Virus record (IMG/VR): IMGVR_UViG_3300014167_000003
Coordinates: 1 to 64,000 of that record
From: a virus
Taxonomy: Duplodnaviria; Caudoviricetes
Reading direction: 5' to 3' (one strand)
Length of the DNA: 64,000 nt
In this document: piece by piece, positions 1,476 through 57,682 of the stretch
How the letters are laid out: the number at the start of each line of letters is the position of its first letter
How positions within the stretch are numbered: position 1 is the stretch's first letter
Made by a program: the position numbers and the translations under genes
The notes under the pieces: model-generated
What the model was told of the DNA's origin: nothing
The model's input: only the letters and a program-made list of their open reading frames with translations
Databases searched by the model: none

Positions 1476-1564
1476 CGTGGGCGGATGTGGTCGCTATTGA
1501 GGCGATCTACCTTTTCCTGATGGCATGCTTTTTGGCCTTGGTGCTGTATTGGATCAACAAATGA
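1472..1564 (+). CDS. Small single-TM peptide (30 aa)
   Basis: MTWADVVAIEAIYLFLMACFLALVLYWINK; ATGA overlaps at both ends. Confidence 0.6.
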   Translation: MTWADVVAIEAIYLFLMACFLALVLYWINK

Positions 1565-3606: not shown

Positions 3607-4466
3607 GGTCCGTTCTCATTACCGGTGGCTCTGGAGCGTTCGGCACCGCCTGCGCGCGCCGGCTCCTCACGCTGACGCCGTACGGACCCACCCGCATTGC
3701 GATCTTCTCCCGTGGCGAGCACCGCCAGGCCGAGATGAACCGCGAGATGAATGCGTTCTCGCCTTCGGCGAACTGGCGCATGCGGTACTTCATTGGCGAT
3801 GTGCGCGACCGCGACCGGCTGCGCCGCGCCATGGAAGGCATCGAACTGGTGATCCATGCCGCCGCGCTCAAGCGGATCGAGACCGGCAACTACAACCCGC
3901 TGGAGGTCAAGCGCACGAACATCGACGGCGCCGCCAACGTGATCGAGGCCGCCACCGACGCCAACGTGCGCAAGATCGTGGCTCTCTCCTCCGACAAGGC
4001 GTACCAGCCGATCAGCCCGTACGGGACCAGCAAGGCGTTCGCCGAGAGCCTCTTCCTGGCCGCCAACAACACGCGCGGCAACCAGGGCCCGATCTTCTCC
4101 ATTGTAAGATATGGGAATGTCTGGGGCTCGACCGGCTCGGTGGTGCCAACCTGGCGCAAGATCCTCGAAACCTCCGACACCGTGCCGGTGACCGATCCCG
4201 ACTGCACCCGCTTCTTCATGACCATGGAGCAGGCGGTCGACCTCGTCCTGGATACCGCGAAGAGCATGCAGGGCGGCGAGATCTCGATCCCGACGCTGCC
4301 GGCGTACCGCCTGGGTGACCTTGCGGAGGCCATGGGTGCGAAGATGGAGGTGAAGGGCCTTCCGCCCTTCGAGAAGATGCACGAGAGCATGGACGCCTGG
4401 CAGAGCAGCGACAATGCCCGCCGGCTCACGGTCGACGAACTGCGGGACATCCTCAAATGCACGTAA
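3603..4466 (+). CDS. PseB/FlaA1-like UDP-GlcNAc 4,6-dehydratase (Polysacc_synt_2 type SDR)
   Basis: LITGGSGAFG, GDVRDRDRL, IHAAALK, ALSSDKA, YGTSK, RYGNVWGSTGSVVP, TRFFMT. Confidence 0.88.
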   Translation: MRSVLITGGSGAFGTACARRLLTLTPYGPTRIAIFSRGEHRQAEMNREMNAFSPSANWRMRYFIGDVRDRDRLRRAMEGIELVIHAAALKRIETGNYNPLEVKRTNIDGAANVIEAATDANVRKIVALSSDKAYQPISPYGTSKAFAESLFLAANNTRGNQGPIFSIVRYGNVWGSTGSVVPTWRKILETSDTVPVTDPDCTRFFMTMEQAVDLVLDTAKSMQGGEISIPTLPAYRLGDLAEAMGAKMEVKGLPPFEKMHESMDAWQSSDNARRLTVDELRDILKCT

Positions 4467-5335
4467 TGCTCTCTGCCGCCGCCTCGCCGGTCGCGCCGTC
4501 GATCATCCGCCACCTGCAGGCGCTCGGCCACTACGTCATCGGCCATGACAGTTTGCAGGAGGGCCTCGGCGCCAAGTTCTGCGACGAGTTCCACCTGTCG
4601 CCGAACATCGCGACGCACCGGTACGCGTACATTCAGTACCTCGGCCGGACGATGAGCAGCTGCGGCTGCTACTTCCCGTTCCTCGATGAAGAGCTGACGC
4701 TCGACTTCGGCGTGATCCCGGATGAGTTCATCTCGCCGCGCGACACGCTCGACATCTTCACGAGCAAGAACAAGCAGCAGCGCAAGCTCGGCGAGGCGGG
4801 CCTCCTGCCGGCGCCGACCATGGCGCTTGCCAGCGGCAAGGCCGTCTGCAAGCCCGACCTCGGGCGCGGCGGCAAGGGCGTCTTTTTCACCGAGGACCAG
4901 GTGATCATCGGCCGGCTCAGCAAGACCGGGTACCTGTGCCAGCAGCAGATCGACGGAGATGAGTACACCATCGACGTGCTCTGCGGCATGGACGGCAAGA
5001 TGCTGTTCGCGGTGCCACGGCTGCGCATCCAGGCGGCCAATGTGAGCACGGTCGGCCGCATCAAGATGGACGAGCGGCTCATCTGGCTCGCCGAGGACGT
5101 CACGAAGAAGTTCTATTTCCGTGGTCCGATCAACATTCAGGTGATCGTCGAGAAGGACACGGGCGTGCCGTACATCATCGAGGTCAACCCGCGCCTCTCC
5201 GGCTCCTGCATGTTCACGGTGATGGCTGGCTTCGACATCCTCGACGCCACCATCCGCATGCACGAGGGCAAAGAGTTCAAGCCGCCAAACCGGGTCGACG
5301 AGATCCTGGTGCGGCGCCGGTACGTGGAGAGCTGA
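4457..5335 (+). CDS. ATP-grasp ligase (CarB-like)
   Basis: KPDLGRGGKG, QQQIDGDEYTIDV, IIEVNPRLSGS. Confidence 0.85.
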   Translation: MHVMLSAAASPVAPSIIRHLQALGHYVIGHDSLQEGLGAKFCDEFHLSPNIATHRYAYIQYLGRTMSSCGCYFPFLDEELTLDFGVIPDEFISPRDTLDIFTSKNKQQRKLGEAGLLPAPTMALASGKAVCKPDLGRGGKGVFFTEDQVIIGRLSKTGYLCQQQIDGDEYTIDVLCGMDGKMLFAVPRLRIQAANVSTVGRIKMDERLIWLAEDVTKKFYFRGPINIQVIVEKDTGVPYIIEVNPRLSGSCMFTVMAGFDILDATIRMHEGKEFKPPNRVDEILVRRRYVES

Positions 5336-5337
5336 CG

Positions 5338-5487
5338 ATGACCTTCAAGGACATCCTCATCGGCCTGCTGTTCTTCATGACCGGCGCCATGCAGGCCGAC
5401 GCCAAGCGCGACGACGACTGGAAGGCGGTCTGCATCATCATCTGCGGCGGCGCCTTTCTCATTGCTTGCACGAGGCACTTCCTGTGA
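5338..5487 (+). CDS. Small two-TM peptide (49 aa)
   Basis: MTFKDILIGLLFFMTGAMQ...AVCIIICGGAFLIACTRHFL, translated by hand; absent from the ORF track. Confidence 0.55.
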   Translation: MTFKDILIGLLFFMTGAMQADAKRDDDWKAVCIIICGGAFLIACTRHFL

Positions 5488-5624
5488 AGATCGAACCGTG
5501 GCTCCTTATGACCGCCAGCCGCGACACCCTCGCCGGCCTGATGCCGCCGATCCCGCCGGAGCGGATCGTCGCCATCCTGCGCAAGGCTGGCTTCTTCCTG
5601 AAGATCAAGGACGCCGGGCGATGA
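5484..5624 (+). CDS. Small hypothetical protein (46 aa)
   Basis: GTG start overlaps the previous stop; stop overlaps ATG 5621; MKIEPWLLMTASRD...KIKDAGR. Confidence 0.5.
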   Translation: MKIEPWLLMTASRDTLAGLMPPIPPERIVAILRKAGFFLKIKDAGR

Positions 5625-6271
5625 GCGAACGCGTCATGGTCATCGCCGCGCACCCGGACGACGAGATCCTCGGCTGCGGCGGCACCATGGCCCGGCATTG
5701 GGCCGATGGCGACGAGGTCACCTGCGTGTTTGTTGCCGATGGCGAGACCGCGCGCATCATGGCGGCGCAGCCGAACCGCAACATCGCCGCGTTCAAGGTG
5801 AGCCAGCTCCTCCACATCCACCCGCCGGTCTTTTTCGACCTCAAGGACCAGCGCCTGGGCACCGTGCCGCTGCTCGACATCACCCAGATGATCGAGAGCC
5901 AGGTCGAGCAATATCGGCCGACCATCGTCTACACCCACCACCACGGCGACCTGAACGAGGACCACCGCATGGTGCACAAGGCGACCATGACCGCGCTGCG
6001 CCCGCTCCCTGGCGCCTCGGTCAGGGCGATCTACGGCTTCGAGGTGCTCTCGTCGACCGAGTGGGGCATCACCTTCAACCCGACGCACTTCGTCGACATC
6101 GCCGACTTCATTCACGACAAGATCGCGGCGCTGAAGCTCTACGACGACGAGATGCGCCCGTTTCCGCACCCGCGTTCGTACAGCGTCGTGAGGACGCTGG
6201 CCCGTTACCGTGGCTCCTGCGTCGGCGTGTCCGCCGCCGAGGCCTTCGTCACCTATAGGAGCATTCGCTAA
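5621..6271 (+). CDS. PIG-L family N-acetylsugar deacetylase
   Basis: VIAAHPDDEILGCGG, VYTHHHGDLNEDH, AEAF; start corrected to ATG 5621. Confidence 0.88.
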   Translation: MSERVMVIAAHPDDEILGCGGTMARHWADGDEVTCVFVADGETARIMAAQPNRNIAAFKVSQLLHIHPPVFFDLKDQRLGTVPLLDITQMIESQVEQYRPTIVYTHHHGDLNEDHRMVHKATMTALRPLPGASVRAIYGFEVLSSTEWGITFNPTHFVDIADFIHDKIAALKLYDDEMRPFPHPRSYSVVRTLARYRGSCVGVSAAEAFVTYRSIR

Positions 6272-6723
6272 TGTTCGACTTCCGACCTGCCCGCATGTCC
6301 GACGCGGACACGCTCTTCGCCTGGCGCAACGACCCGGTCACCCGCGCCGGCTTCCGCTCCACCGCCGAGGTGCCGCGCGAGGACCACGACCGCTGGATGC
6401 AGTTCAACGTGCTCCAGGGCTACCCGACCCACATCGTCATGATCGCCGAGACCGACGAGGGCAGCTGCGGCGTGGTCCGCTTCGATGCCGACCGGCGCGA
6501 CGTCATGAGTTATGAGACCTCGGTGATCGTGGCGCCGAACTTCCGTGGCCGTGGCCTGGGCGCGCCGATGCTCGCCGCCGCCTGTGCCAACATGAGCGGG
6601 TGCAAGCTGCACACCGTCGTGCGGCCGGAGAACGCCGCGTCGAGGAAGACCTTCGAGGGCGCCGGCTTCGTCCACGTCGGCGAGGATGGCGAGTTCATGC
6701 TCTACAAGAAGGAGCAGCCATGA
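6271..6723 (+). CDS. GNAT N-acetyltransferase (PseH-like)
   Basis: LFAWRNDP, HDRWM, FRGRGLG, ENAASRKTFEGAGF. Confidence 0.82.
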   Translation: MFDFRPARMSDADTLFAWRNDPVTRAGFRSTAEVPREDHDRWMQFNVLQGYPTHIVMIAETDEGSCGVVRFDADRRDVMSYETSVIVAPNFRGRGLGAPMLAAACANMSGCKLHTVVRPENAASRKTFEGAGFVHVGEDGEFMLYKKEQP

Positions 6724-7856
6724 TCGGCGCGATGAAGCGGTGGAGCGGCATCGACGACCGTGAGCGCGCGGCGGCGATGACCGCCCTGCATATGGACCTG
6801 TCCGGCTACCTGGCCGGCAAGGAGCGCGGCGGCTTCTACGTCCAGATGCTCGAAGACATGTGGGCCGACACGTTCAAGGTCAAACACGCCATCGCCTGCA
6901 ATAGCGCCACCTCGGGCCTCCTCGCCGCCGCGTTTGCGGTCAACCTCGGGCCGGAGGATAGGTTTGCCGTCTCGGCAATGACCATGTCGGCGACCGCCGC
7001 CGCGCCGATGTTCACGGGCGCGGCGCCGCTCTTCTGCGACGTCAACGACGACGACTTCGGCATGGTCACGCGCGCCATGCCGGAGAACACCAAGGCGATC
7101 TTTTCGGCCAACCTGTTCGGTAGGGCCGGCCACCTTGGCCGGCGCGAATGGGACAAGGAGTGCGGCACCTACCTGATCGAGGACAACAGCCAGTCGCCGT
7201 TCGCCATCGCCATCGGGCGCTACATCGGCACCATGGGCCACATCGGCGTCTGGTCGCTCAATGTCCACAAGCACATCCAATGCGGCGAAGGCGGCATGAT
7301 CACCACCGACGACGACGGCCTCGCCTGGCGCCTGCGCGGCCTCGTCAACCACGGCGAGAACCTCATGGGCCCTATCGGCCTGAACCTGCGCATGCCCGAG
7401 GTCTGCGCCGCCATCGCGGTAAGTCAGCTCCAGCGCGGGCCGTGGCTCGTCGGCGGCCGGGTGGAGCAGGCGCACAACATCCTGCGCGCCATCGGCGACA
7501 TTCCTGGCATCAAGGCGCCGCCGATCAGGGACGACTTCAGCAACGTGTTCTACCTGATCCCGTTCCTGATCGACGGGCGGGATGACGGCCCGCTCGATGA
7601 GGAGGTGTTTACGGATCGCCACCGCCGCGCGTTCTGCGCATCGCTGCGCACGAGCGGCGTGCCTATCGTTGAAGGCTACGTCGAACCGCTGTATAGGCTC
7701 CCGGCATTCGCGCGCTACCGGCGCCCGTGCCCGGTCGCCGAGGATCTGCAGGCCCGGCGGCTCTTCTACTTCGAGAATTGCGCCTGGGACCCGACGCCGG
7801 AGCAGATCGATCGGATTGGCGACGCGTTCAGGAAGGCCGCCAAGGAGACGCTCTGA
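6720..7856 (+). CDS. DegT/DnrJ/PseC-family PLP sugar aminotransferase
   Basis: CNSATSGL, LIEDNSQS, SLNVHKHIQCGEGGMITT, GLNLRM; start ATG 6720. Confidence 0.88.
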   Translation: MIGAMKRWSGIDDRERAAAMTALHMDLSGYLAGKERGGFYVQMLEDMWADTFKVKHAIACNSATSGLLAAAFAVNLGPEDRFAVSAMTMSATAAAPMFTGAAPLFCDVNDDDFGMVTRAMPENTKAIFSANLFGRAGHLGRREWDKECGTYLIEDNSQSPFAIAIGRYIGTMGHIGVWSLNVHKHIQCGEGGMITTDDDGLAWRLRGLVNHGENLMGPIGLNLRMPEVCAAIAVSQLQRGPWLVGGRVEQAHNILRAIGDIPGIKAPPIRDDFSNVFYLIPFLIDGRDDGPLDEEVFTDRHRRAFCASLRTSGVPIVEGYVEPLYRLPAFARYRRPCPVAEDLQARRLFYFENCAWDPTPEQIDRIGDAFRKAAKETL

Positions 7857-8029
7857 TGCCCAAGCTGCACATCGTCTACGATCCCGACGACAAGATCATC
7901 CTGGACCCGCAGGCGTCGAAGACGCTCAACTGCAAGATCGCGCAGCTCTCGGTGCCCGACGACATCAAGAGCGTCGACATCTACAACCTGGCGAAGCGCC
8001 TGGCCGAGCTTCTGGTGGAGACGCTGTGA
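7856..8029 (+). CDS. Small hypothetical protein (57 aa)
   Basis: TGATG coupling; MPKLHIVYDPDD...ELLVETL. Confidence 0.55.
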   Translation: MPKLHIVYDPDDKIILDPQASKTLNCKIAQLSVPDDIKSVDIYNLAKRLAELLVETL

Positions 8030-8166
8030 ACCTCGGCAATATCCCGGTCGTGACGCCGCTTCACTTCTGGATACCGCCCGAGGTCAAGCCGCTCTTCTGC
8101 TTCCTCCTCGGCTTCTTCCTCGCGTCCGTGCTCTGCCACGCGCGGCGCCACCTGGATGGGATGTGA
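8026..8166 (+). CDS. Small membrane peptide (46 aa)
   Basis: GTGA coupling; hydrophobic PLFCFLLGFFLASVLC. Confidence 0.5.
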   Translation: MNLGNIPVVTPLHFWIPPEVKPLFCFLLGFFLASVLCHARRHLDGM

Positions 8167-8167
8167 C

Positions 8168-9193
8168 ATGATCATCAACGGACGCGAGATTGACAGGCAG
8201 CACCGGCCCTACATCATCGCCGAGGTCAGTTGCAACCATGGTGGCTCGCTCGCGCGCGCCATGGAGCTGATCGACGCGGCCAGGTTCTGCGGCGCCGACG
8301 CGGTCAAGTTTCAGTGCGTCACGGCGGACACCATCACCATCAATTGCGACCGGCCGGAGTTCACCATTCCCGAGGGCCCGTGGGCCGGGCGCAACCTCTA
8401 CGAACTCTATTCGGAGACGAAGACGCCGTTCGAATGGTTCCCGGCGATCAAGGAGCGCGCCGAGAAGGCCGGCATTACCTGGTTCGCGTCGGTATTCGAC
8501 CGCAGCGCCGTCGACCTGATGGACCGGCTCAATGCGCCGGCCATCAAGATCGCGTCGTTCGAGCTGGTCGACACGCCGCTCATCAAATACGCCGCCTCGA
8601 CCGGCAGGCCGCTCATTCTTTCGACCGGCATGGCCAGCTACCAGGAGATCACCGCCGCGATAGCGGCCATCGGGCCGTATGGGCAATGGGAGCACGCGCT
8701 CCTCCATTGCGTCTCGGAGTACCCGACGCCGCACAGCCAGGCGGATCTGCTGCGCCCGAAGTACGGCATCCGGCACGGCTTCGTGGACGGGATCAGCGAC
8801 CACTCGGTCGGGCCCGAGATCCCTATCGCCGCGACCGCCTGCGGCGTCAGCATCATCGAGAAGCACTTCCGCCTGTCCTGGCACCCGGACACCGAGGACT
8901 CGCCGTTCTCGCTCGACGAGGTCGACCTCATGCGGATGGTCGAGCATGTGAAGAATACCTGGGACGCCATGCAGCCGCCGCCGGAGCGCGCCGAGTACAT
9001 GCACCTCCCGCTGCGGCGCTCGCTCTTTGCCGTCGCCGATATCAAGGCCGGCGAGATGTTCACCGAGGAGAACGTGCGCTCGATCCGGCCGGGCAATGGC
9101 CTGCCGCCGTCGCGGATCGATGGCATCATTGGCGAGGTTGCGGCGCGCGACATCAAGCGCGGCGAGCCCATGGCATGGGAGATGGTGAAATGA
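8168..9193 (+). CDS. PseI/NeuB/SpsE-family nonulosonate synthase with C-terminal SAF/AFP-like domain
   Basis: YIIAEVSCNHGG, ADAVKFQ, IKIASFE, LILSTGMA, LHCVSEYP, ISDH, IIEKHF, RRSLFAVADIKAGE, RPGNG. Confidence 0.92.
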   Translation: MIINGREIDRQHRPYIIAEVSCNHGGSLARAMELIDAARFCGADAVKFQCVTADTITINCDRPEFTIPEGPWAGRNLYELYSETKTPFEWFPAIKERAEKAGITWFASVFDRSAVDLMDRLNAPAIKIASFELVDTPLIKYAASTGRPLILSTGMASYQEITAAIAAIGPYGQWEHALLHCVSEYPTPHSQADLLRPKYGIRHGFVDGISDHSVGPEIPIAATACGVSIIEKHFRLSWHPDTEDSPFSLDEVDLMRMVEHVKNTWDAMQPPPERAEYMHLPLRRSLFAVADIKAGEMFTEENVRSIRPGNGLPPSRIDGIIGEVAARDIKRGEPMAWEMVK

Positions 9194-29706: not shown

Positions 29707-30095
29707 GCACCGCTCCCAAAGATCCGTTCACGAAATTGGCTCAGCAGCTCCACCACCCGCTCATGCTGCCGTGGCTGCTCCAGCTGCATGTAGTCGGCGA
29801 GGCTGCTTTCGAGCACCTGGATGTTCTTGTCGATCCGCTCGACGATGGGTGTCTCGATGTCGCGTATCGGCTTCGGCGGGTGCTTGGCGTGCGCCGGGCA
29901 CAGGTCGTGCTTGTTGTCCTTGCCGACCACCCAGCCGCGCTCGACGAGCTTGCGCTCGATCACCTCGGGCGGCAGGTCCGTCCTGGTGTTGCAGTTGACC
30001 GTCGCGGTGACGCCGCAGCGGCAGCACTCGACCTTGTAGCGGCGCCGGGTGTCGCCGAGCGGGTTCACCATCCTGTCGAAATATCGGTTGGTCAT
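29703..30095 (-). CDS. Hypothetical protein with CxxC ... C motif
   Basis: ECCRCG, HDLCPAH. Confidence 0.55.
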   Translation of the reverse strand: MTNRYFDRMVNPLGDTRRRYKVECCRCGVTATVNCNTRTDLPPEVIERKLVERGWVVGKDNKHDLCPAHAKHPPKPIRDIETPIVERIDKNIQVLESSLADYMQLEQPRQHERVVELLSQFRERIFGSGA

Positions 30096-31048
30096 TATGT
30101 CCACCAGAACTGCGGGAACGGCTCCGGCCGCTCGCCCTGGCCGCGCCACATCAGCTTGTCGACGGTCTTCTCATCATGCGCCGCGTTCACCGCCTTGATG
30201 ATCAGCGCGATGAGGAGGAGCGGGTCGCGGCGCTTCTCGTCCGTTCGATGGAGGAGCACCTCGCGCAGCTTATAGAACGGGTCATTGATGGCGACGCCGG
30301 TCGGGTTTTCGAGCGTCTCGACCATGCGCTCGGCCAGCGGCTCGTCGTGGCTCGCCAGCATGTAGTAGGCGAACCCGAGGATCGCCGGGTTGATCAGCCG
30401 GCGCAGGTTCTTGTTGACGCGGGCCACCGCGCGAACCATCTCGGGGTGCGCCTTGTACGCCTCCTCGATCATGGCGTTCTCGACCCGGTTCTCGGCATTG
30501 CGCGAATTGAGCATGGTGCCGCGCTGGTAATGGATCAGGTAGACGAGCGCGTGCGACGTCGATGCCTTATGGTGCGAGAGCCCGCTCACCGCGAGCACGT
30601 CGGCGCCGGAGCGGCTCTTCCTGATGGTGTCGATGGTCGAGAACGCGTCGGGCTTGACGCCGAACACGATGATCACCCACACCCGCGCCTTGGAATAGAT
30701 CACCGCCCAGAGCCGGTGCTGGCCGTCGAGCACGTCGCCGGTCGAGCCGATCTTGATGGTCTCGCCGTTGACCTTCCACAGCCCGTTCGACATCTGCCGC
30801 GCAATGCGCTTGGCATGCATGTCGGAGAGCGGCCGGTTGTTGTCGTTGCCTTCCAGGATGCGCGCGGCGAGGGTCTCGTCGATGTAGCCCTCCCACTGCC
30901 GCAGCCCGTTGCCGATGTCCTTGGTCGGCAACCCGAAGAAGGCAGCAGCATCGGCAATGGTCGGCGCCACGGGCGCCGCCGGCTCCGGCAGGTCACCCTT
31001 GGCCTTCAGCTTTTCGAGGAGAGACATCGCTGGAACTCCTGTAGCCAC
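30095..31048 (-). CDS. ParB/DGQHR-like N-terminal domain protein
   Basis: NDNNRPL, GETIKI, VLDGQHRLWAVI; start probably 31027. Confidence 0.72.
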   Translation of the reverse strand: MATGVPAMSLLEKLKAKGDLPEPAAPVAPTIADAAAFFGLPTKDIGNGLRQWEGYIDETLAARILEGNDNNRPLSDMHAKRIARQMSNGLWKVNGETIKIGSTGDVLDGQHRLWAVIYSKARVWVIIVFGVKPDAFSTIDTIRKSRSGADVLAVSGLSHHKASTSHALVYLIHYQRGTMLNSRNAENRVENAMIEEAYKAHPEMVRAVARVNKNLRRLINPAILGFAYYMLASHDEPLAERMVETLENPTGVAINDPFYKLREVLLHRTDEKRRDPLLLIALIIKAVNAAHDEKTVDKLMWRGQGERPEPFPQFWWT

Positions 31049-31524
31049 GACAATGCGGGAACGAGCTTGCGGTCGATCAGTCCGGTGCGGTCGAGCGCGA
31101 CGGCAACGGCGGCAACATCGGACGCGAGCGGAAGGCTGGTCAGCTCCTCCAGGGCGGTCTTCAGGTGGCCCCAGATCGCCGCCTTCTCGTCGAACGTCTT
31201 TTTCCGGTCGTCGGGTGCCGCCGCACGCTTGCGCCTCTTCTTGGGCCTGTGCGCCACATGAGCGAGCGTGCGGTAGGCGCCGTCGACAGAGATCCGGCCG
31301 AGTTCGAGGTTGGCGATGATCGTCGGGTCGCCACGCAGGAGCACCTGGCGCGCCTTGACGACGCTCGACCGGTGCACCTCGAACTGGTCCGCCGCCTGCT
31401 GGATCGACACCGGAGGGTCAGCCGTCTCGTGGTGCCTGCCGTTCTCCGAGATGCCCAGGTTGCACACCCGCGCCGCCGCGAAGGCCCGGCGCGCAATTTC
31501 TCCGTTGTCGGGTTTATCGAGCAT
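31006..31524 (-). CDS. HTH DNA-binding protein
   Basis: SD GAGGTG before ATG 31524; VSIQQAADQFEVHRSSVVKARQV, GRISVDGAY. Confidence 0.7.
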   Translation of the reverse strand: MLDKPDNGEIARRAFAAARVCNLGISENGRHHETADPPVSIQQAADQFEVHRSSVVKARQVLLRGDPTIIANLELGRISVDGAYRTLAHVAHRPKKRRKRAAAPDDRKKTFDEKAAIWGHLKTALEELTSLPLASDVAAVAVALDRTGLIDRKLVPALSWLQEFQRCLSSKS

Positions 31525-31541
31525 TAGATCCACCTCACTGT

Positions 31542-31900
31542 ACGTTGCGATGCGTGGAGGCGAGGAGCGTGGCGATGCGATGCGAGGAGGCGCGAGGTGT
31601 CGAGCAGCTGTGCGTAGCGGTGGCAAATTTCGCAGACGTTGCGTTGCGTTGCGTTGCGGGGCGCCGCGAAGCGATGCGTTGCAGAGCGGGGCGCTGTGAC
31701 GCGGAGCGCTGCACTGCGTGGATAAACTTGGTAGACGTTGCGTTGCGGGGCGACGCGAAGCGGTGCGATGCAGAGCGGCGCTCTGTGAGGCGGAGCGTTG
31801 CACTGCGGTGCGAGGTGAAGCGGAGCGGTGCGTCGTAAAATTCTGGTAGACGTTGCGAGGCGCTGCGGTGCGTGAGCGGCGTTGCATTGCGCTGTTGCGG
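31542..31900 (-). ncRNA. Array of four pentamer-periodic units, (NN-CGC)n ending AACGT, separated by 14-15 nt AT-rich linkers; candidate guide-RNA array
   Basis: Units at 31542-31621 (16 pentamers), 31636-31720 (17), 31735-31834 (20) and 31850-about 31893 (about 9, one register slip). The repeat is directly visible; RNA status is inferred. Confidence 0.7.
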
Positions 31901-32395
31901 TCATCCCTGCGCTCCCTTGATCTTTTCGAGGAGGCTCGTGAGGTCGGGAACCGAGGAAGGCACAGCCCTGACCTTGACCGTTGCCGCCGCGTCCTCAATA
32001 GCCGCCAGCCGCGTGTTGTTCGTCGAGGCGCGCAACTGGTCGCCCGTGGACAAGGCGTCGAACTGGACAATGTGGCCGAGGCGCTTGCGGCCCCGGCGCG
32101 CGCCGCGCGCGATCTTCTTCAGATCGGCATCGGAGTGCGCCACCAGGTCTTGGTCGTGCATCCGCTTCCAGCCGTAGCTGCGGAGCCGGCGAAAGTGCAC
32201 CGGAGGGTCGCCGCGCTCCAACTCACGAAGCGCCGACCGCATCACATGACTGCCAGGGTCGACCGTATGCCCGAGCGTCTGACTGATCCGTTGGTCGGTG
32301 ATCTCGTCGTTAACACCAACCAGCAGGACCGCAAGGCGGCGTGCCATTTCGGCGATCTCGGGGCGCTTGATGAACATGGGGCGCGGCGTTGTCAT
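31901..32395 (-). CDS. Basic accessory protein between the RAMP gene and the array
   Basis: 164-aa ORF starting 3 nt after the RAMP stop; winged-helix-like N-terminal half. Confidence 0.7.
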   Translation of the reverse strand: MTTPRPMFIKRPEIAEMARRLAVLLVGVNDEITDQRISQTLGHTVDPGSHVMRSALRELERGDPPVHFRRLRSYGWKRMHDQDLVAHSDADLKKIARGARRGRKRLGHIVQFDALSTGDQLRASTNNTRLAAIEDAAATVKVRAVPSSVPDLTSLLEKIKGAQG

Positions 32396-32398
32396 GGT

Positions 32399-32956
32399 TT
32401 AGTTCCAGGTGAATTTGGTAGGTTTGAACCGACCGTTCAGCCCGCCCTTTTGCGGTTTGAAGCGGCCGATGCCGATGCTGGTGCCCGCCGTCTTCAACAC
32501 GCGTTCAAAGATCTCCTTGGTGACGGTGTCGTCCAAGATTGTGAACGCAGCGTCAGCCTCCCACTGCGGTATCACCGGGAAGGTACGCCAGACCCGCTTG
32601 CCGCTGCCCCTTACGCCATCGACGTTGCAGCTAACACGGACGGAGGCAACGGTGTCCTTCCTGGCGGCCAATACAACATCATGGTCGCAAATGACGTCGG
32701 CTTCGAAGAACTTGGTATAGGTCTTCTTGCCTTTGCCGGGGATTTGGATGCCGAGCTTTTTCGCGGAGGCGTCAAGACATTGCTTGAGGGCCATGGCCGG
32801 AATGTAGATAAAACCGTCCTCGTTGTAGTTGCACTTCTCCCGCCAAGTGCGCTTCTCGTGGTCGTCGTTCGTTTCGCCGCTCAATTTCGGCACTTCATGC
32901 TGATGGGATTGAGAATACGGGGTAATGCTTTCAAGCCGAACAGTGACGTTACGCAT
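32399..32956 (-). CDS. Stand-alone RAMP/Cas7-like protein
   Basis: N-terminal strand VTVRLESITPY, IYIPAMALKQCL (compare RAMP IPGSSLKG), C-terminal Gly-rich loop SIGIGRFKPQKGGLNGRF; SD GGAGG. Confidence 0.72.
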   Translation of the reverse strand: MRNVTVRLESITPYSQSHQHEVPKLSGETNDDHEKRTWREKCNYNEDGFIYIPAMALKQCLDASAKKLGIQIPGKGKKTYTKFFEADVICDHDVVLAARKDTVASVRVSCNVDGVRGSGKRVWRTFPVIPQWEADAAFTILDDTVTKEIFERVLKTAGTSIGIGRFKPQKGGLNGRFKPTKFTWN

Positions 32957-32974
32957 TGTCGTCCTCCATTATGG

Positions 32975-33029
32975 TCGTTGCGATGAGTTGCGGCGCGCAG
33001 CGCAGCTCTGCGATGCGTGGCGGGGCGGA
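32975..33029 (-). repeat. Solo pentamer unit (11 x NN-CGC) upstream of the RAMP gene
   Basis: + strand tcgtt gcgat gagtt gcggc gcgca gcgca gctct gcgat gcgtg gcggg gcgga. Confidence 0.8.
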
Positions 33030-33036
33030 ATGGTCG

Positions 33037-33966
33037 CTACGCTGCCTCCCGCAGGTGAAGTTTGAGCCGCTCGTCGATCTGATCCCGCCGCCACTGCGCC
33101 AGATCGATGAACTCCGCGTCCGCGCGGTCGTCGCCGGGCCCCGGCCAGTGGCCGTTCGACAAGCAGTCCGCGAACGTTCGCAACGCGGCGCGGTTCATCT
33201 TGGCGCCGCGCGCGATGTCCTCATCGCGAAGCGTCGTCACCCGCACGCAATGCGGCGGCGTCTTCTCGACCCAGATGAGGCTGAATGAGGTGGCCTCCAT
33301 GTCGAGCGCCTTGGCGCCTTCGAACACGAGACCGGCTTGCTGGCAGTAGCCGTAGTTGCCGAGAGACGCCTGCAGGTCGCGGTACACCACGCTCGTTGTC
33401 GTCTTGAGATCGCCGAAGTCGCCGCTGTCGCTCGGGATCACATCGGGCCGCGCCTTGAGCCAGATGCCGGTCTCCTGATCCTTCCAGATCATCGAGCGCT
33501 CGATCTGGCCGTTGAGGATGCCGCTCTGCACGAGCGGGTTGGCGCCGAGAGCCAGCGCCATGCCCTTGATGGCGTCGATCATGCTGTTCGTCAGGACGGT
33601 CTTGCCGGCGCGCTGCTGGGCCCGCTTCCACTCGCGGCAGGCCTTCCTGTTGCCGTGCCAGGCGGCGCCATCGAGCCAGTCCGGCTGCACCGCGAACTGG
33701 TCGCTGAAGCCGACCTCGCCGCAGATCAAAAAATGTGCCGCCCGGCCGAGGACGAATGCCTCGTTGTCGTCCTCGACGATGCGCTCCGGGTTGATGCCGC
33801 AGCGGGCCCAGGCGTGTGCCGGGCTCTTGTCCCAGAGCACCCGGAGCGGCGACGACGACACCGATGGGCCGACGCAAAGATCACCGTGGTACTGGGCCAG
33901 CGGGATGCCAGCGTACAGGCCGGCAACACCGATGCGTTCGCCGTTCCAGGGAATTGATCGGATCAT
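33037..33966 (-). CDS. RecE/ExoVIII-like PD-(D/E)XK exonuclease
   Basis: VSSSPLR, FVLGRAAH, IERSMIWKD, LKARPDVI, DLKTT, GYCQQA, LIWVEK. Confidence 0.85.
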   Translation of the reverse strand: MIRSIPWNGERIGVAGLYAGIPLAQYHGDLCVGPSVSSSPLRVLWDKSPAHAWARCGINPERIVEDDNEAFVLGRAAHFLICGEVGFSDQFAVQPDWLDGAAWHGNRKACREWKRAQQRAGKTVLTNSMIDAIKGMALALGANPLVQSGILNGQIERSMIWKDQETGIWLKARPDVIPSDSGDFGDLKTTTSVVYRDLQASLGNYGYCQQAGLVFEGAKALDMEATSFSLIWVEKTPPHCVRVTTLRDEDIARGAKMNRAALRTFADCLSNGHWPGPGDDRADAEFIDLAQWRRDQIDERLKLHLREAA

Positions 33967-40949: not shown

Positions 40950-43900
40950 CTACGCGTAGGGGTTAACAGCGCCGCCGTACGGCCCGACGTCGCCGCCGAC
41001 ACGGTACTTGCGCTTGATGTCGATGAGCTTGTCATTGAACATGACGTAGTTGTGGCTCTCGGGCCTGCTAAGCTCGCGGAGCAGCCCGTTGAGGCGCATA
41101 TAGTCGCCGCTGCCACTCTCCTCGGCCTTCACAAGCTGCCGCCTGACGGCAACGAGCGCCTTCTGGCGGGTGCCATATTCATCGATCACAGGCTTCACGT
41201 CAGCAGCCGGGCGCGACATCTGGTCATCGTAACGCAGGCCCGGGATGCCTTCACGGTCGAGCCCCATCGCAGAGCGCCGGTATCCCTCGCTCTGTGTGGT
41301 CGCCGGCAGGCCAAAACGCGTGTAGATCTGCTGGCCCGTCAGGCTGTCGACATCGGCTTGCTGTAGGCGGCGCTCGTAATTCTCACGCTCGGCATCGTTG
41401 AGCGGGCGCCCAAAACCAACAGGAGACGACGTCCCCCGGCTCAAAATGCGGCTGATCACTTCCCGCTGGTCCTTGACCGACTTCTCCATCAGCGGCGCGG
41501 CCTTGTTCTGGACGTAGCGCGACTGATCCTTGAACCGTGCGTCCCAGTCGAGCAGATGCTCGGGGTCGACGTTCAGGCCGACCTCGTACATCTTGCCGCT
41601 GGGGCCGCCGAGCTTCTGCTCCAGGCGCGGGATCGCCCTGGTAAGATGGTCGATCTGACGCTGCCGGTTCGCAGCGAACATCTCAAGGTCTTCGGGGCTG
41701 TACGTCGATGCGAGCGGCGGGTTTGCGCGCTGGTCCCTTGCCCGCTGCAGGAAATAGTCGCGCTTCTCGGTCTCCTTCTGCAGGTCCTCGAAGAACTTGT
41801 CATAGCTGCCCTTGCTGCGGGAAAGCAGGCGATCATAGTGTTGCTGCGCCAGCCACCGGTCGTTGTCGTCGCCCGAAGTCTTCATGTCCCGGAGCATGGA
41901 CGGCGTGACCCGCTCCCCATCGAGTGTCAGATGAGGCGAGACCGTCTTCTGCAGCGCGTCGCGGTAGCGTTGCGCGACGCCCTCCTTGTCAGCAAAGTAG
42001 AGCCCGTGGCCGTAGACCTGCTGGCCCTCGCCCGAGCCGATCTTCGAGATATCGAACCTGTCGAAGTCGTACGGCGAGCCGTGGTAGGCGGTGATGTCCC
42101 CCTGGCCGGTGTCGTCGCCGGCAGACGGCGGCAGGTCTTCCCGCTGCGTCGGCTCGGTGCCCGTGGCGCCGCCGCCGGCCTTCTTCGGCACCGAGCCGCC
42201 GTGCGACAGCAGCGGCTTCTTGCCCTTGATGAAGTCGTGCAGCACCTTCTCCGGGCGCTCGCCGCGCATCTTTGCGGTGAACAGAACGCGCTCGTTGAAC
42301 ATCTCCGGGAAGGTGTGCGTCGGTGGCGAGCCGAGGCCGGTCATCTTGCCGGCACCGCTCCAGGCAGCGGCCTGTGCGTCGGCCGGCGCCAGGCCGGCCT
42401 TCTTGGCAAGCGAGCGATAGAGCCCTTCGGCTGCGCCGTACTCGTTCTCGTTCGGCTGTGCCGCCCAGAACGCCGGGATCTCTTCCGCCTCCTTCATCGA
42501 GAGCTTGCCACGCTCGACCAGGTGCTGCGGCCGATAGACCACCTTGTCGTCGCCGCTCGGTTCGCCGAAGCGCGCGGCGAGCGTGTCCTTGCCCTCAGCC
42601 CTCGGCCCGACCGTGCGCGTCTCCAGGAAGCGCGGGTCTTGCGTCCGCATGCCGATGTTGCGGAACGCGTGCGTGTCGACGGTGACCGGGACGAGGTTGC
42701 CCTGGAGGTTCTGCGAGAACGACGCGGGCTTCGGGTTCCTGAGCGCGTCCCAGCTGCCTTCGTCGCGCAGCGTCGCGTAGTTCTCACGGTGCTGCTTCTG
42801 GGCGAAGTGCCCGTATGGGTATGGCAGCTTCTCCGGCAGGTCGCGGTCGTTGAGCGCGTGCAGGTACTGATAGCTCGCGTTGCGGATGTTCTCCGGCACC
42901 GCCGAGCGCGGCGACGTCGCGGCAACGTGGTCCATGTACTTCGCGAACGCACGGAGACCGTCTTCGAGCCCGAGCTTCTCGACGAAGGCGCGGCGGATCG
43001 GCTCGGTGTGATACCACTTGTCCGCGCCCATCGCCTTGCCGGCCTCAATGCTCTTCATGATGCCGCGCCGGATCTTCGGGTCATCGAGCGCCGCCTGGAG
43101 CCGCTCCGAGACGCCACGCGGCGGCTCGTACCGCTCCATCGCCTCTTGCGGCACCTGCGGCACCCGGTTCTGCGTGCTCAGGTCGAGCGGGCCGGCGCCC
43201 TTCGGGCCGGCCTTGATCTCGTCGAGCGCCTCCTTCTGCGCCTTGGTGTAGTTCTTGCCATGGATCGGCAGGCCCTGCTCGTCGACCAGGAGCGCGCTGC
43301 CCTTGTGGATGGCCGGCGACGCCACGCGGTCCTCCATCGTCCACTCGGGAAGGAGGCCCATCTTCTGCTTGGCGTAGATCGTGTCCTCGGCATTGGCGGT
43401 GCGGTTGAACTCGCCATGCGGGCCGTAGTTGAGCCAGCTGTTCTGCCCGCGCGTCTCGGTCGTCATCGCGCGCCGCGCCTCGGGCGAGTACATGGCAGCG
43501 TGCGCGCGCCAGGCATTGTCTTCGCCAGGGCCACGGAAGCCGTAGCCGTTCTTCACATGGCCGAAGTAGTCGTGGACGATGCGGAACAGGTCATTGTTGA
43601 GCAGCTCGTGCTCGCCGATCTTCTCGCCGCTCGGCCGCAGCATCGGGTGGTCGGGGTCCGGCACCTCGCCGGGACCGAAGCCCTCGCTGGTCTTGAAGAA
43701 CGCCATATGGTTGTTGTCGGCGACGTCCTTCACGACCTCGCGCGGGTTGGTCTTGTACGGATAGTCAGCGGCACCGGTCGGGGTGATCTTGAGCCCGCTC
43801 TCCTTGATCGCTTGGTACTGCGCCAAGGTCTCGCGGATCAGCGCGTCGTACGCCGCCTTCGTGTCCGGGTCATGCGGCGTGTGTGGCATGTCCTCGAACG

Positions 43901-56602: not shown

Positions 56603-57682
56603 TCATAGGATCTGGATTGAGACGTGCGCCGAGGTGATAACAGCGACGGCCGAGCCACCGACAACGGTGGAGGCCTGTTCAATTGCGCCCGAGGTGCCTG
56701 CGGTGGCCACCTGCTCCACCACGCCGATCTCGCCGCCCGTGAAGCTCTCCTCGATCACGCCGATCTCGCCGGAGACAACGGTGTTCCAGAAGCGGACGCT
56801 CTCGACCAGGGTGTCCTTGGTCTCGATGGCCGAGAGCGCCGCGAACGTCGTCGCGGTCGGCCGCAGCTGGCTCGGCCCGGTGTAGAATTGCTGCAGCCAG
56901 GAGCCGAGGCCGATCTTGAGCCGCACGGGCTCGGACAGGTTCGCGAACCACTCGATCAGCTCCTGGAGCGGGATGACGGACGGGTCGGTCGCGAAGAACT
57001 GCTGCTCCGGCGCCGGCAGGCCGGGCTTGAGCCGCACGGGCTCGGTCAGCCAGTTGTAGTAGGCGAACGAGACGAGCGGCTTGTAGCTGCCGTAGGCCAA
57101 GAACTGCTGCTCGGCGGCCGGCACGCCGGGCTTCTGGCGCACGGGTTCCGAAAGCCAGTCGAAATACGAGAACGTGACAACGGGCTTCTGGTCGCCGTAG
57201 GCGAACGCCTGCTGCAGCTCCGGCCGCAGCCCTGGCTTGATGCGGACAGGCTCCGAGAGCCAGTCGAACCAGGAAATGTTGATAAACGGGAACGGCTGGG
57301 AGAACTCGTACTGGTTGTCGCCCGGCAGCAGCCGCAGCGACACCCGAACCGGGTCCGACAGGTTGTTGAAGTAAGCGAACGAGACGAGCGGGTTGTTCGG
57401 CGCCTGGATCAGCGCCTGCTGGTCGGCAGCGGCCAACCCAAGCTTCGTTTTGACGATTGGCTCGGACCACGCATAGTGCCACGACGCCTCGTCGTTGCTC
57501 GGGTCCAGCGCCTGCGGTATCGGCGCGAAGGCGCCAGATGCGGCCAAGGCGATGGCGAGAGCCGGCGCGATCTTCTGCCGCACGGGCTCGGACCATGGGA
57601 AATGCCACTCGCTTTCGGTCTGAGCCGGGTCACTCCGCGCGAGAACCGGTTCGGTCGTTTGCTGGTACTGAAATCTTAGCAT
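56603..57682 (-). CDS. Repeat protein with about seven (W/L)SEPVRxKxGL repeats
   Basis: Repeats visible in both protein and DNA. Confidence 0.7.
   Translation of the reverse strand: MLRFQYQQTTEPVLARSDPAQTESEWHFPWSEPVRQKIAPALAIALAASGAFAPIPQALDPSNDEASWHYAWSEPIVKTKLGLAAADQQALIQAPNNPLVSFAYFNNLSDPVRVSLRLLPGDNQYEFSQPFPFINISWFDWLSEPVRIKPGLRPELQQAFAYGDQKPVVTFSYFDWLSEPVRQKPGVPAAEQQFLAYGSYKPLVSFAYYNWLTEPVRLKPGLPAPEQQFFATDPSVIPLQELIEWFANLSEPVRLKIGLGSWLQQFYTGPSQLRPTATTFAALSAIETKDTLVESVRFWNTVVSGEIGVIEESFTGGEIGVVEQVATAGTSGAIEQASTVVGGSAVAVITSAHVSIQIL

What the first reader, a model, noticed from the sequence alone, without database searches (positions are those of the whole stretch)
31006..33037. Lone RAMP/Cas7-like gene with NN-CGC pentamer arrays: candidate RNA-guided system using a gapped dinucleotide code
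Seen in sequence: on the minus strand the order is RecE-like gene, one pentamer unit, 185-aa gene, 164-aa gene, four pentamer units, HTH gene. Each unit is strictly 5-nt periodic: a near-constant triplet (CGC; variants TGC, CAC, CTC, AGC) alternates with a variable dinucleotide. The four array units end in AACGT (the solo unit in AACGA) and are separated by AT-rich linkers (CTACCAGAATTTTAC, CTACCAAGTTTATC, CTGCGAAATTTGCC). Variable dinucleotides in transcript order: C = GA AC TC TT CT AC AG AA TC CT AG GC TC AT AC TT GT CC AA AA; B = CA AG AG TC GT AG CC TC AA AT TT GG CC AA AA AA AA; A = AC TA AC TG GA CT GC CT AT AT CA TC GC CA AT AA. Established: the 185-aa protein carries RAMP hallmarks (IPAMALKQ, Gly-rich C-terminal loop), and RAMP/Cas7 proteins polymerise on RNA with a fixed number of nucleotides per subunit. 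No cas1/cas2, nuclease effector or CRISPR array is in the window. Inference: each subunit binds one CGC and displays the NN for base pairing, so each unit is a guide. From memory (unverified here), recently reported phage VIPR systems use GGY-NN repeats. This locus would be a variant with a CGC triplet, possibly acting against competing phages or as a repressor.
Basis: partly seen in the sequence, partly recalled or inferred. Interest (0 to 1): 0.95.

Follow-up and report, generated by a model that had tools for sequence, protein, structure and literature searches.

The report
Phage VIPR system with CGC-NN guides
This phage genome carries a genuine VIPR system (a small Cas7-like protein, a DNA-binding helper gene and five guide-RNA genes built of five-base repeats), a CRISPR-related class first published in 2026. 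It differs mainly in using C-G-C instead of G-G-Y as the constant letters, so it is real and tidy but not a new kind of system.

Summary
On the minus strand, 5-nt periodic NN-CGC arrays flank a 185-aa gene and a 164-aa gene, and nothing else in the 64 kb is like them.

- **Protein:** the 185-aa protein folds as a Cas7-type RAMP. It falls in the same PHROG as the experimentally studied SUSP1 Vipr, and its only PDB sequence match is "SUSP1 Vipr protein".
- **Arrays in homologues:** 43 of 48 homologous bacterial loci keep pentamer arrays beside the gene. Across 129 loci the triplet was called CGC in 69, CAC in 11, GGC in 9, CTC in 7 and GAC in 6.
- **Verdict:** It has the SUSP1 gene order: solo vrRNA, vipr, vap, vrRNA array.
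- **Differences from SUSP1:** a CGC triplet, which fits the paper's alternative "YNNNG" repeat. There is no structured 3' tail, only constant AA repeats, and the winged-helix Vap shows no detectable homology to vap1.
- **Targets:** none found for this phage's own guides in any search. In three related phages, CGC-type guides match rivals' helicase genes under the published 1-nt-skip rule, and match them better than their own alleles.
- **Earlier notes:** this scan has already noted VIPR systems on other DNA (509 notes).

It is a new member of a known kind, of moderate-to-low interest.

The parts
32975..33029 (-). vrRNA unit S (solo, upstream of vipr): 11 NN-CGC pentamers ending AACGA
   Evidence: It is one of only two regions in the window that pass the periodicity scan. 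SUSP1 has an upstream solo vrRNA in the same position.
32399..32956 (-). vipr: 185-aa Cas7-like RAMP protein
   Evidence: No Pfam hit. phrog_4652 at E 1.4e-9, which is the SUSP1 Vipr family. AF2 pLDDT 87. Foldseek top hits are Cas7-type RAMP subunits. The PDB profile search hits only 36pp 'SUSP1 Vipr protein'. hhalign to SUSP1 Vipr gives 85.6% over the thumb, helix and G-loop. More than 1,865 homologues.
31901..32395 (-). vap-like accessory gene: 164 aa, or 158 aa from the ATG at 32377. Predicted winged helix plus long helices.
   Evidence: A gene of about 160 aa is conserved after vipr in many CGC-type loci. AF2 pLDDT 88 with an H-E-H-H-E-E topology. Only weak Foldseek hits, to MarR- and ScpB-type winged-helix proteins, E 0.04. 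No detectable homology to SUSP1 vap1.
31850..31905 (-). vrRNA unit D: short and degenerate, 5 in-phase pentamers ending AACGT plus about 3 after a phase break. It starts right after the vap stop codon.
31735..31849 (-). vrRNA unit C: 15-nt AT-rich leader plus 20 pentamers. The last two carry NN = AA; the unit ends AACGT.
31636..31734 (-). vrRNA unit B: 14-nt leader plus 17 pentamers. The last four carry NN = AA.
31542..31635 (-). vrRNA unit A: 14-nt leader plus 16 pentamers. It has the most triplet variants (CTC, AGC, CAC).

Best explanation
This is a phage-borne VIPR system (Viral Interference Programmable Repeat).

**Proposed mechanism.** The minus-strand early operon is transcribed through vrRNA S, vipr, vap and the array D-C-B-A. 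The transcript is cut in or near the AT-rich linkers into guides of about 55-115 nt. Vipr protomers then coat each guide, one per pentamer. They bury the CGC triplet and display the NN dinucleotide. The filament binds double-stranded DNA whose sequence reads NN-x-NN-x (one base skipped per repeat) and blocks transcription there. The winged-helix Vap assists at the DNA. The likely targets are rival phages or other mobile elements of the same host.

**Shown here:**
- the anatomy of the locus;
- the RAMP fold and the kinship to SUSP1 Vipr;
- conservation of the arrays next to the gene in relatives;
- hypervariable NN against a constant triplet;
- a constant (AA-CGC)n 3' end that does not pair with targets;
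- 1-nt-skip matches to rival genes in three related phages.

**Inferred from the published SUSP1 work:** RNP formation, dsDNA binding, silencing, guide processing, and the role of Vap.

**Unknown:** what this phage's own four to five guides target.
For: - **Published class.** VIPR is defined as Vipr plus vap plus vrRNAs of alternating triplet/NN pentamers. Its features are a 1-nt skip rule, transcriptional silencing, phage-borne loci, seven types, and alternative repeats NNNGG, YNNNG and NNNNG.
- **Same layout as SUSP1.** The SUSP1 locus in KT454805.2 has the order solo vrRNA, vipr (195 aa), vap (146 aa), array.
- **Protein kinship.** phrog_4652 at E 1.4e-9 for the window protein and 1.4e-96 for SUSP1 Vipr. 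The only PDB profile hit is 36pp SUSP1 Vipr. hhalign gives 85.6% with the G-loop aligned. The fold is Cas7-like.
- **Arrays travel with the gene.** 43 of 48 genome loci have arrays beside it. Among 129 loci the triplet is CGC in 69, and GGC (canonical GGY) in 9 on the gene's strand, which fixes the RNA strand here as minus.
- **Unique guides.** The window's guides use 15 of 16 dinucleotides. No other of 289 guides shares more than 56% of NN.
- **Constant 3' end.** It is conserved in 187 CGC-type units.
- **Code test in the clade.** 3 of 193 guides hit at 80% or better only at skip 1. Each matches a rival's SNF2-helicase allele (13/15, 11/13, 12/14 NN) better than its own (8/15, 8/13, 10/14), and the AA tail repeats stay unpaired.
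- **No self-target** on the own 74-kb record, as the paper also reports for its systems.
Against: - **No natural target for this phage's guides.** Places searched: the own record; 1.5 Mb of related loci; IMG/VR seed scans of all four guides; metagenome and genome seed scans of guide C, which gave chance seeds only, with 0-1 of 8 further NN matching; 401 genomes of the order of a related host; and five whole nearest viral records.
- **Triplet is CGC, not the published GGY.**
- **No structured 3' tail or ribozyme.** Fold z-scores lie between -0.1 and +1.5, and there is no Rfam family.
- **No promoter or terminator consensus**.
- **Weak sequence similarity outside the PHROG profile.** Similarity to SUSP1 Vipr is confined to the C-terminal third, with PDB E 0.018.
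- **Thin clade-level code evidence.** It rests on three guides from one trio of related contigs.
- **No expression data.**
Confidence: 0.87

Rival explanations
1. A real VIPR-family locus with a different job from rival silencing. For example, it could target host genes or host defences, act on RNA, or be a decaying, guide-drifted system whose guides no longer match anything.
For: No target was found for any of the window's guides in any collection searched. Unit D is degenerate, and unit A has many triplet variants. Earlier notes of this scan report VIPR guides aimed at defence or modification genes in other genomes (unchecked here).
Against: Vipr is highly conserved: 49 invariant columns among 23 homologues. 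Vap is intact, and units C and B have nearly perfect scaffolds, which argues against decay. Related CGC-type guides do hit rival phage genes. Missing targets are expected when the rivals of an uncultured phage are not in the databases.
Confidence: 0.08
2. The arrays work as DNA, not RNA. They would be iteron- or centromere-like 5-bp-phased binding sites for the neighbouring winged-helix protein or the ParB-like protein, serving replication or partition of the element.
For: A ParB-like gene (30095-31048, phrog_5931) and DNA-binding-type genes lie next to the arrays. No transcript evidence exists.
Against: Across more than 100 loci the arrays travel with the RAMP gene, not with ParB-like genes. 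Binding sites would not keep a constant triplet while varying the NN freely and uniquely in every unit. Guides of relatives spell rival genes with a 1-nt skip. The homologous SUSP1 protein is solved bound to such RNA.
Confidence: 0.03
3. The periodic tracts are protein-coding repeats. Long ORFs run through them, for example 31524-31904 and 31006-32070.
For: ORFs of 126 and 354 aa are open across the arrays. In three related contigs an array lies in frame inside a helicase ORF.
Against: A 5-nt period is out of step with codons. Linkers of 14 and 15 nt shift the frame between units. The conserved letters are the CGC triplet in every codon phase, while the NN are free. CGC-rich repeats simply lack stop codons. 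Unit number and order differ in every relative.
Confidence: 0.02

Closest known systems
Type II VIPR of Escherichia phage SUSP1 (Vipr, vap1, four vrRNAs; bioRxiv 10.64898/2026.04.26.720920 and .720927; PDB 36pp)
   Same: - Phage-borne, with no cas genes or CRISPR array.
- Gene order: solo vrRNA, vipr (185 vs 195 aa), small vap, vrRNA array.
- Same PHROG.
- RAMP fold with a thumb and an aligned G-loop.
- Pentamer guides with a constant triplet and a free NN.
- The 1-nt-skip code holds in this clade.
   Different: - Triplet CGC instead of GGY.
- G-loop GIGRF(K/R)P instead of GVGDWRP. The residue aligned to SUSP1 D177, which reads G1, is R165, and W178 is F166.
- 11-20 repeats per guide instead of 9-16.
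- No ~40-nt pseudoknot tail. The constant part is 1-4 AA-CGC repeats plus a 14-15-nt AT-rich linker.
- Vap has no detectable homology to vap1.
- Protein identity is too low for BLAST to detect.
Other VIPR types with non-GGY repeats (the paper's 'related consensus': NNNGG, YNNNG, NNNNG) and with helicase or nuclease vap genes (types III-V)
   Same: CGC-NN read in the paper's register is C-NN-CG, which is YNNNG. Related loci L089, L092 and L096 carry an SNF2 helicase after vipr, like the helicase-type vap genes mentioned.
   Different: The type of this locus could not be assigned: the paper's figures, tables and data files are not held. The CAC-, CTC- and GAC-NN relatives found here do not fit any of the three printed alternative consensus forms.
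Cas7 backbone subunits of class 1 CRISPR effectors (type VII Cas7, Csm3, Cmr4)
   Same: Best structural matches: Foldseek E 1e-7 to 1e-5, TM 0.54-0.64. RRM core, thumb hairpin and Gly-rich loop. They polymerise on RNA with a fixed number of nucleotides per subunit.
   Different: 5-nt rather than 6-nt register. No Cas5, Cas6, large-subunit or adaptation genes, and no CRISPR array in the record. The guide is gapped rather than contiguous. Sequence identity is 9-17%.

Membership tests
VIPR system | A Vipr protein: a minimal RAMP (RRM core, thumb, G-loop) related to the characterised SUSP1 Vipr | tested here: met
   phrog_4652 at E 1.4e-9, against 1.4e-96 for SUSP1 Vipr. The only PDB profile hit is 36pp 'SUSP1 Vipr protein', E 0.018. 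hhalign 85.6%. Foldseek top hits are Cas7-type RAMP subunits.
VIPR system | vrRNA genes: tandem pentamers in which a conserved triplet alternates with a hypervariable NN, flanking vipr | tested here: met
   Five units of 8-20 pentamers. 15 of 16 dinucleotides are used, and the guides are unique among 289. The periodicity is far beyond chance. The arrays are conserved beside the gene in relatives.
VIPR system | The triplet is GGY (canonical consensus) | tested here: not met
   The triplet is CGC, with variants TGC, CAC, CTC and AGC. This fits the paper's alternative YNNNG repeat. GGC occurs in 9 related loci. The authors do not treat GGY as obligatory for the class.
VIPR system | A constant 3' tail after the repeats (a pseudoknot in the SUSP1 clade) | tested here: inconclusive
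   A constant 3' end exists, CGC-AA-CGC-AA-CG[T/A/C], seen in 187 units. It is not structured, and there is no Rfam ribozyme.
VIPR system | An adjacent vap accessory gene with a DNA-related function | tested here: met
   A conserved gene of about 160 aa follows vipr. It has a winged-helix-like fold, pLDDT 88, but with only weak structural matches. It is not homologous to vap1.
VIPR system | Viral or proviral location, without cas genes or a CRISPR array | tested here: met
   IMG/VR virus record with direct terminal repeats, rated 100% complete. No Cas1 and no CRISPR-like repeats. Phage genes surround the locus.
VIPR system | Guides specify DNA targets by the 1-nt-skip code | tested here: inconclusive
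   For this locus no target was found. For the CGC clade, 3 of 193 guides hit only at skip 1, in rival helicase alleles.
VIPR system | vrRNAs are expressed, processed, and form an RNP with Vipr that silences transcription | not testable with these tools
   Needs small-RNA sequencing, pull-down and reporter assays.
CRISPR-Cas (class 1) | A CRISPR array of repeats and spacers, plus a multi-subunit effector and usually adaptation genes | tested here: not met
   No Cas1, no repeat-spacer array, and a single RAMP gene.

The most novel reading that the evidence does not exclude
The CGC clade, with more than 1,800 proteins, may be a naturally re-coded and orthogonal VIPR scaffold, in two respects.

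**Triplet specificity set by a few G-loop residues.**
- Residue 165, aligned to SUSP1 D177, is R in 77 of 78 loci whose middle base is G. It is Q in 10 of 11 CAC loci and F, V or S in all 6 GAC loci.
- Residues 171 and 174 are mostly G and N when the first base is C, and N and Y/F in 14 of 15 loci when it is G.

**A minimal guide cap.** The cap would be a run of AA repeats rather than a folded tail.

If true, the triplet could be changed by design, and several VIPR systems could run side by side without cross-talk.
Probability: 0.3. Interest if true: 0.55.

Novelty: new member of a known kind. Interest (0 to 1): 0.3.

Why it matters
It adds a clean, complete example of VIPR from a high-GC phage (65% G+C; hosts of the nearest relatives suggest an alphaproteobacterial host, but the host was not identified). 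It also shows three things about the family.

- A very large branch uses CGC rather than GGY as the buried triplet, yet appears to keep the 1-nt-skip code.
- A structured tail is dispensable in this branch.
- The triplet changes together with G-loop residues that, in the solved SUSP1 structure, touch the triplet bases.

These points bear on how Vipr reads its scaffold and on building orthogonal programmable silencers. They do not open a new class: the class, its code and its diversity were published in 2026, and this scan has already met it many times.

Tried and rejected
**Target searches for this phage's guides (all negative)**
1. Own 74-kb record, skips 0-3 against shuffles. The only hits are the guides themselves at skip 3.
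2. 1.5 Mb of 129 related loci.
3. Exact 9-10-NN seeds in IMG/VR for guides C, A, B and S. One chance hit that failed to extend, 1 of 11 further NN.
4. A 10-NN seed of guide C in metagenome and genome collections. Four chance hits, with 0-1 of 8 further NN.
5. 14 NN of guide C with up to 3 mismatches in 5 host genomes of relatives and in 401 genomes of that order.
6. Five whole nearest viral records, all guides in both directions.

**Other attempts that led nowhere**
- Host identification through a flanking sugar-synthesis gene: no relative retrieved.
- Assignment to one of the paper's seven types: the figures and data files are not held.
- vap against SUSP1 vap1: no homology, 3%.
- vap fold search: only weak winged-helix matches.
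- Rfam, promoter and terminator scans: nothing.
- Structured tail: rejected.
- Phylogenetically corrected test of the residue-triplet covariation: only 2 supported independent pairs, so it cannot reach significance.
I rebuilt the units from coordinates instead.

Full report
**What is there**

All features lie on the minus strand of the window. The gene order is:

1. A RecE-like PDDEXK exonuclease gene at 33966-33037 (PF12684; phrog_412).
2. Solo unit S at 33029-32975: 11 pentamers of the form NN-CGC, ending AACGA.
3. A 185-aa gene at 32956-32399.
4. A 164-aa gene at 32395-31901. Gene callers start it at the ATG at 32377, giving 158 aa.
5. Unit D at about 31905-31850, short and degenerate.
6. 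Three long units:

| Unit | Coordinates | Pentamers |
|---|---|---|
| C | 31834-31735 | 20 |
| B | 31720-31636 | 17 |
| A | 31621-31542 | 16 |

Each long unit is preceded by a 14-15-nt AT-rich linker and ends in one to four AA-CGC repeats plus AACGT. A 172-aa gene with no family hit follows at 31524-31006.

A 60-nt periodicity score reaches 0.97 here. It exceeds 0.8 in 154 windows, all within these two regions. Twenty Markov simulations of the window never exceeded 0.75.

**The protein**

- The 185-aa protein has no Pfam family but more than 1,865 homologues, nearly all unnamed.
- With an alignment of 23 of them, AlphaFold gives pLDDT 87. The model is an RRM-like core with a beta-hairpin around the invariant DGVRGSGKR and a disordered Gly-rich loop, GIGRFKPQKGGLNGRF.
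- The best matches in the PDB are Cas7-type backbone subunits: type VII Cas7, Csm3 and Cmr4/6. Foldseek E runs down to 1e-7 and TM is 0.54-0.64.
- It matches phrog_4652 over almost its full length at E 1.4e-9.
- I located the SUSP1 VIPR locus in KT454805.2. Its Vipr is the core of that same PHROG, at E 1.4e-96.
- A profile of the window's family searched against all PDB sequences finds a single chain, 36pp 'SUSP1 Vipr protein' (E 0.018).
- hhalign aligns the thumb strand, the last helix and the G-loop at 85.6% probability.

**The published class**

VIPR was described in 2026. Its published features are:

- a Vipr RAMP, a vap gene, and vrRNAs of 9-16 pentamers in which GGY alternates with NN;
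- one protomer per repeat, which buries the triplet and displays the NN;
- dsDNA recognition with one base skipped per repeat, leading to transcriptional silencing of rival phages and satellites;
- seven types, with 'a related consensus' in some; the repeat variants NNNGG, YNNNG and NNNNG are named.

CGC-NN, read in the authors' register, is C-NN-CG, which is YNNNG. The window's gene order is also that of SUSP1: solo vrRNA, vipr, vap, array.

**Do relatives keep the arrays?**

Yes.

- In 43 of 48 loci from bacterial genomes, periodic arrays lie directly beside the gene.
- IMG/VR holds 294 viral contigs with a relative.
- Over 129 loci the triplet is called CGC in 69, CAC in 11, GGC in 9, CTC in 7 and GAC in 6.
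- The GGC loci show the canonical motif on the gene's strand. This supports the minus strand as the RNA strand here.
- In 187 unique CGC-type units the 3' end CGC-AA-CGC-AA-CG[T/A/C] is conserved, while the upstream side shows only a weak T-rich motif.
- The linkers and ends do not fold better than shuffles.
- No Rfam family or ribozyme is present, and no promoter or terminator consensus.

So this clade lacks the pseudoknot tail of SUSP1. Its constant part is a few AA repeats.

**The accessory gene**

- A gene of about 160 aa follows vipr in many CGC-type loci.
- The model (pLDDT 88) has a winged-helix-like N-terminal half and long C-terminal helices.
- Structural matches are weak, to MarR- and ScpB-type proteins at E 0.04.
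- There is no detectable homology to SUSP1 vap1.

This fits the paper's statement that types II, VI and VII carry DNA-binding vap genes. I could not assign the type, because the figures and data tables are not held.

**Is the code the same?**

For this phage I found no target. The searches were:

- the own record;
- 1.5 Mb of related loci;
- seed scans of IMG/VR for all four guides;
- seed scans of the metagenome and genome collections for guide C, which gave chance hits only, none of which extended;
- 401 genomes of a related host's order;
- five whole nearest viral records.

At clade level the result is different. I tested 193 unique guides against the 1.5 Mb set.

| Rule | Guides with a hit at 80% NN or better |
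|---|---|
| 1-nt skip | 3 |
| Skip 0 | 0 |
| Skip 2 | 0 |
| Reversed NN order | 0 |
| 20 shuffles of the skip-1 scan | 0-1 each |

All three hits lie in one trio of related contigs (L089, L092, L096), in the SNF2-helicase gene next to vipr. Each guide matches a rival's allele (13/15, 11/13, 12/14 NN) better than its own phage's allele (8/15, 8/13, 10/14). The terminal AA repeats never pair.

This is what inter-phage targeting of relatives' VIPR loci, reported for the SUSP1 family, would look like. The sample is small and comes from one lineage.

**Scaffold recognition: a lead, not a result**

In SUSP1, D177, W178 and R179 of the G-loop touch G1, G2 and Y3. The aligned residues here are R165, F166 and K/R167. 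Across the loci:

- Residue 165 is R in 77 of 78 loci with G as the middle base, Q in 10 of 11 CAC loci, and F, V or S in all 6 GAC loci.
- Residues 171 and 174 are mostly G and N with C as the first base, and N and Y/F in 14 of 15 loci with G.

On a tree built without these columns, only two well-supported independent contrasts exist. Both go the expected way. Common descent therefore cannot be excluded.

**Context**

- The record is a 73,997-bp IMG/VR virus with direct terminal repeats, rated complete.
- The VIPR locus sits in the early region. Its neighbours are RecE- and RecT-like genes, a ParB-like gene, a methyltransferase, a primase-helicase and an integrase.
- There is no Cas1 and no CRISPR-like repeat.

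**Verdict**

This is a member of the published VIPR class, in a large branch that uses CGC. Its own targets are unknown, and its activity is inferred rather than shown. This scan has already noted VIPR systems on other DNA (509 notes), including other non-GGY triplets. Novelty is therefore modest.

Noticed in passing
L089:1470-2849, L092:4420-5799, L096:7677-9191: In three related IMG/VR contigs the gene after vipr is an SNF2-family helicase. A vrRNA unit lies in frame inside its ORF, between the two helicase halves (for example L089:2222-2306). Guides of each contig match the helicase allele of the others better than their own.
   Followed up: partly
Loci L001-L048 and L051-L130 (arrays beside the vipr homologue): The buried triplet differs by lineage within one protein family: CGC, CAC, CTC, GAC and GGC. 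It changes together with G-loop residues 165, 171 and 174. CAC-, CTC- and GAC-NN do not fit any repeat consensus printed in the VIPR paper.
   Followed up: partly
window 1525-9193 (+): A cluster of nonulosonic-acid-type sugar synthesis genes sits on a record that IMG/VR rates as a complete virus with terminal repeats. The genes are a cytidylyltransferase-aminotransferase fusion, a Polysacc_synt_2 dehydratase, an ATP-grasp protein, a DegT aminotransferase and NeuB. This is either phage- or plasmid-borne cargo or a sign that the record is not purely viral.
   Followed up: no
window 56994-57268: A 105-nt tandem repeat, 2.0-2.6 copies at 73-78% identity, in the late or structural region.
   Followed up: no
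window 30095-31048 (-): A 317-aa protein with a ParB-like DGQHR motif, in phrog_5931 (unknown function) at E 3e-47. It lies two genes downstream of the array, with no Pfam hit.
   Followed up: no
OR003939.1 22444-22857 (Phage DSL-LC04): This is the only match to the window's Vipr in the GenBank phage collection (30% identity, E 4e-5). It is annotated 'helix-turn-helix transcriptional regulator', which is probably a mis-annotation of a vipr gene.
   Followed up: no
window 43085-43134 (+): A lenient parse calls a 10-unit CGC chain inside the 1,878-aa ORF. It is isolated, fails the periodicity threshold, and is most likely chance in GC-rich coding sequence.
   Followed up: partly
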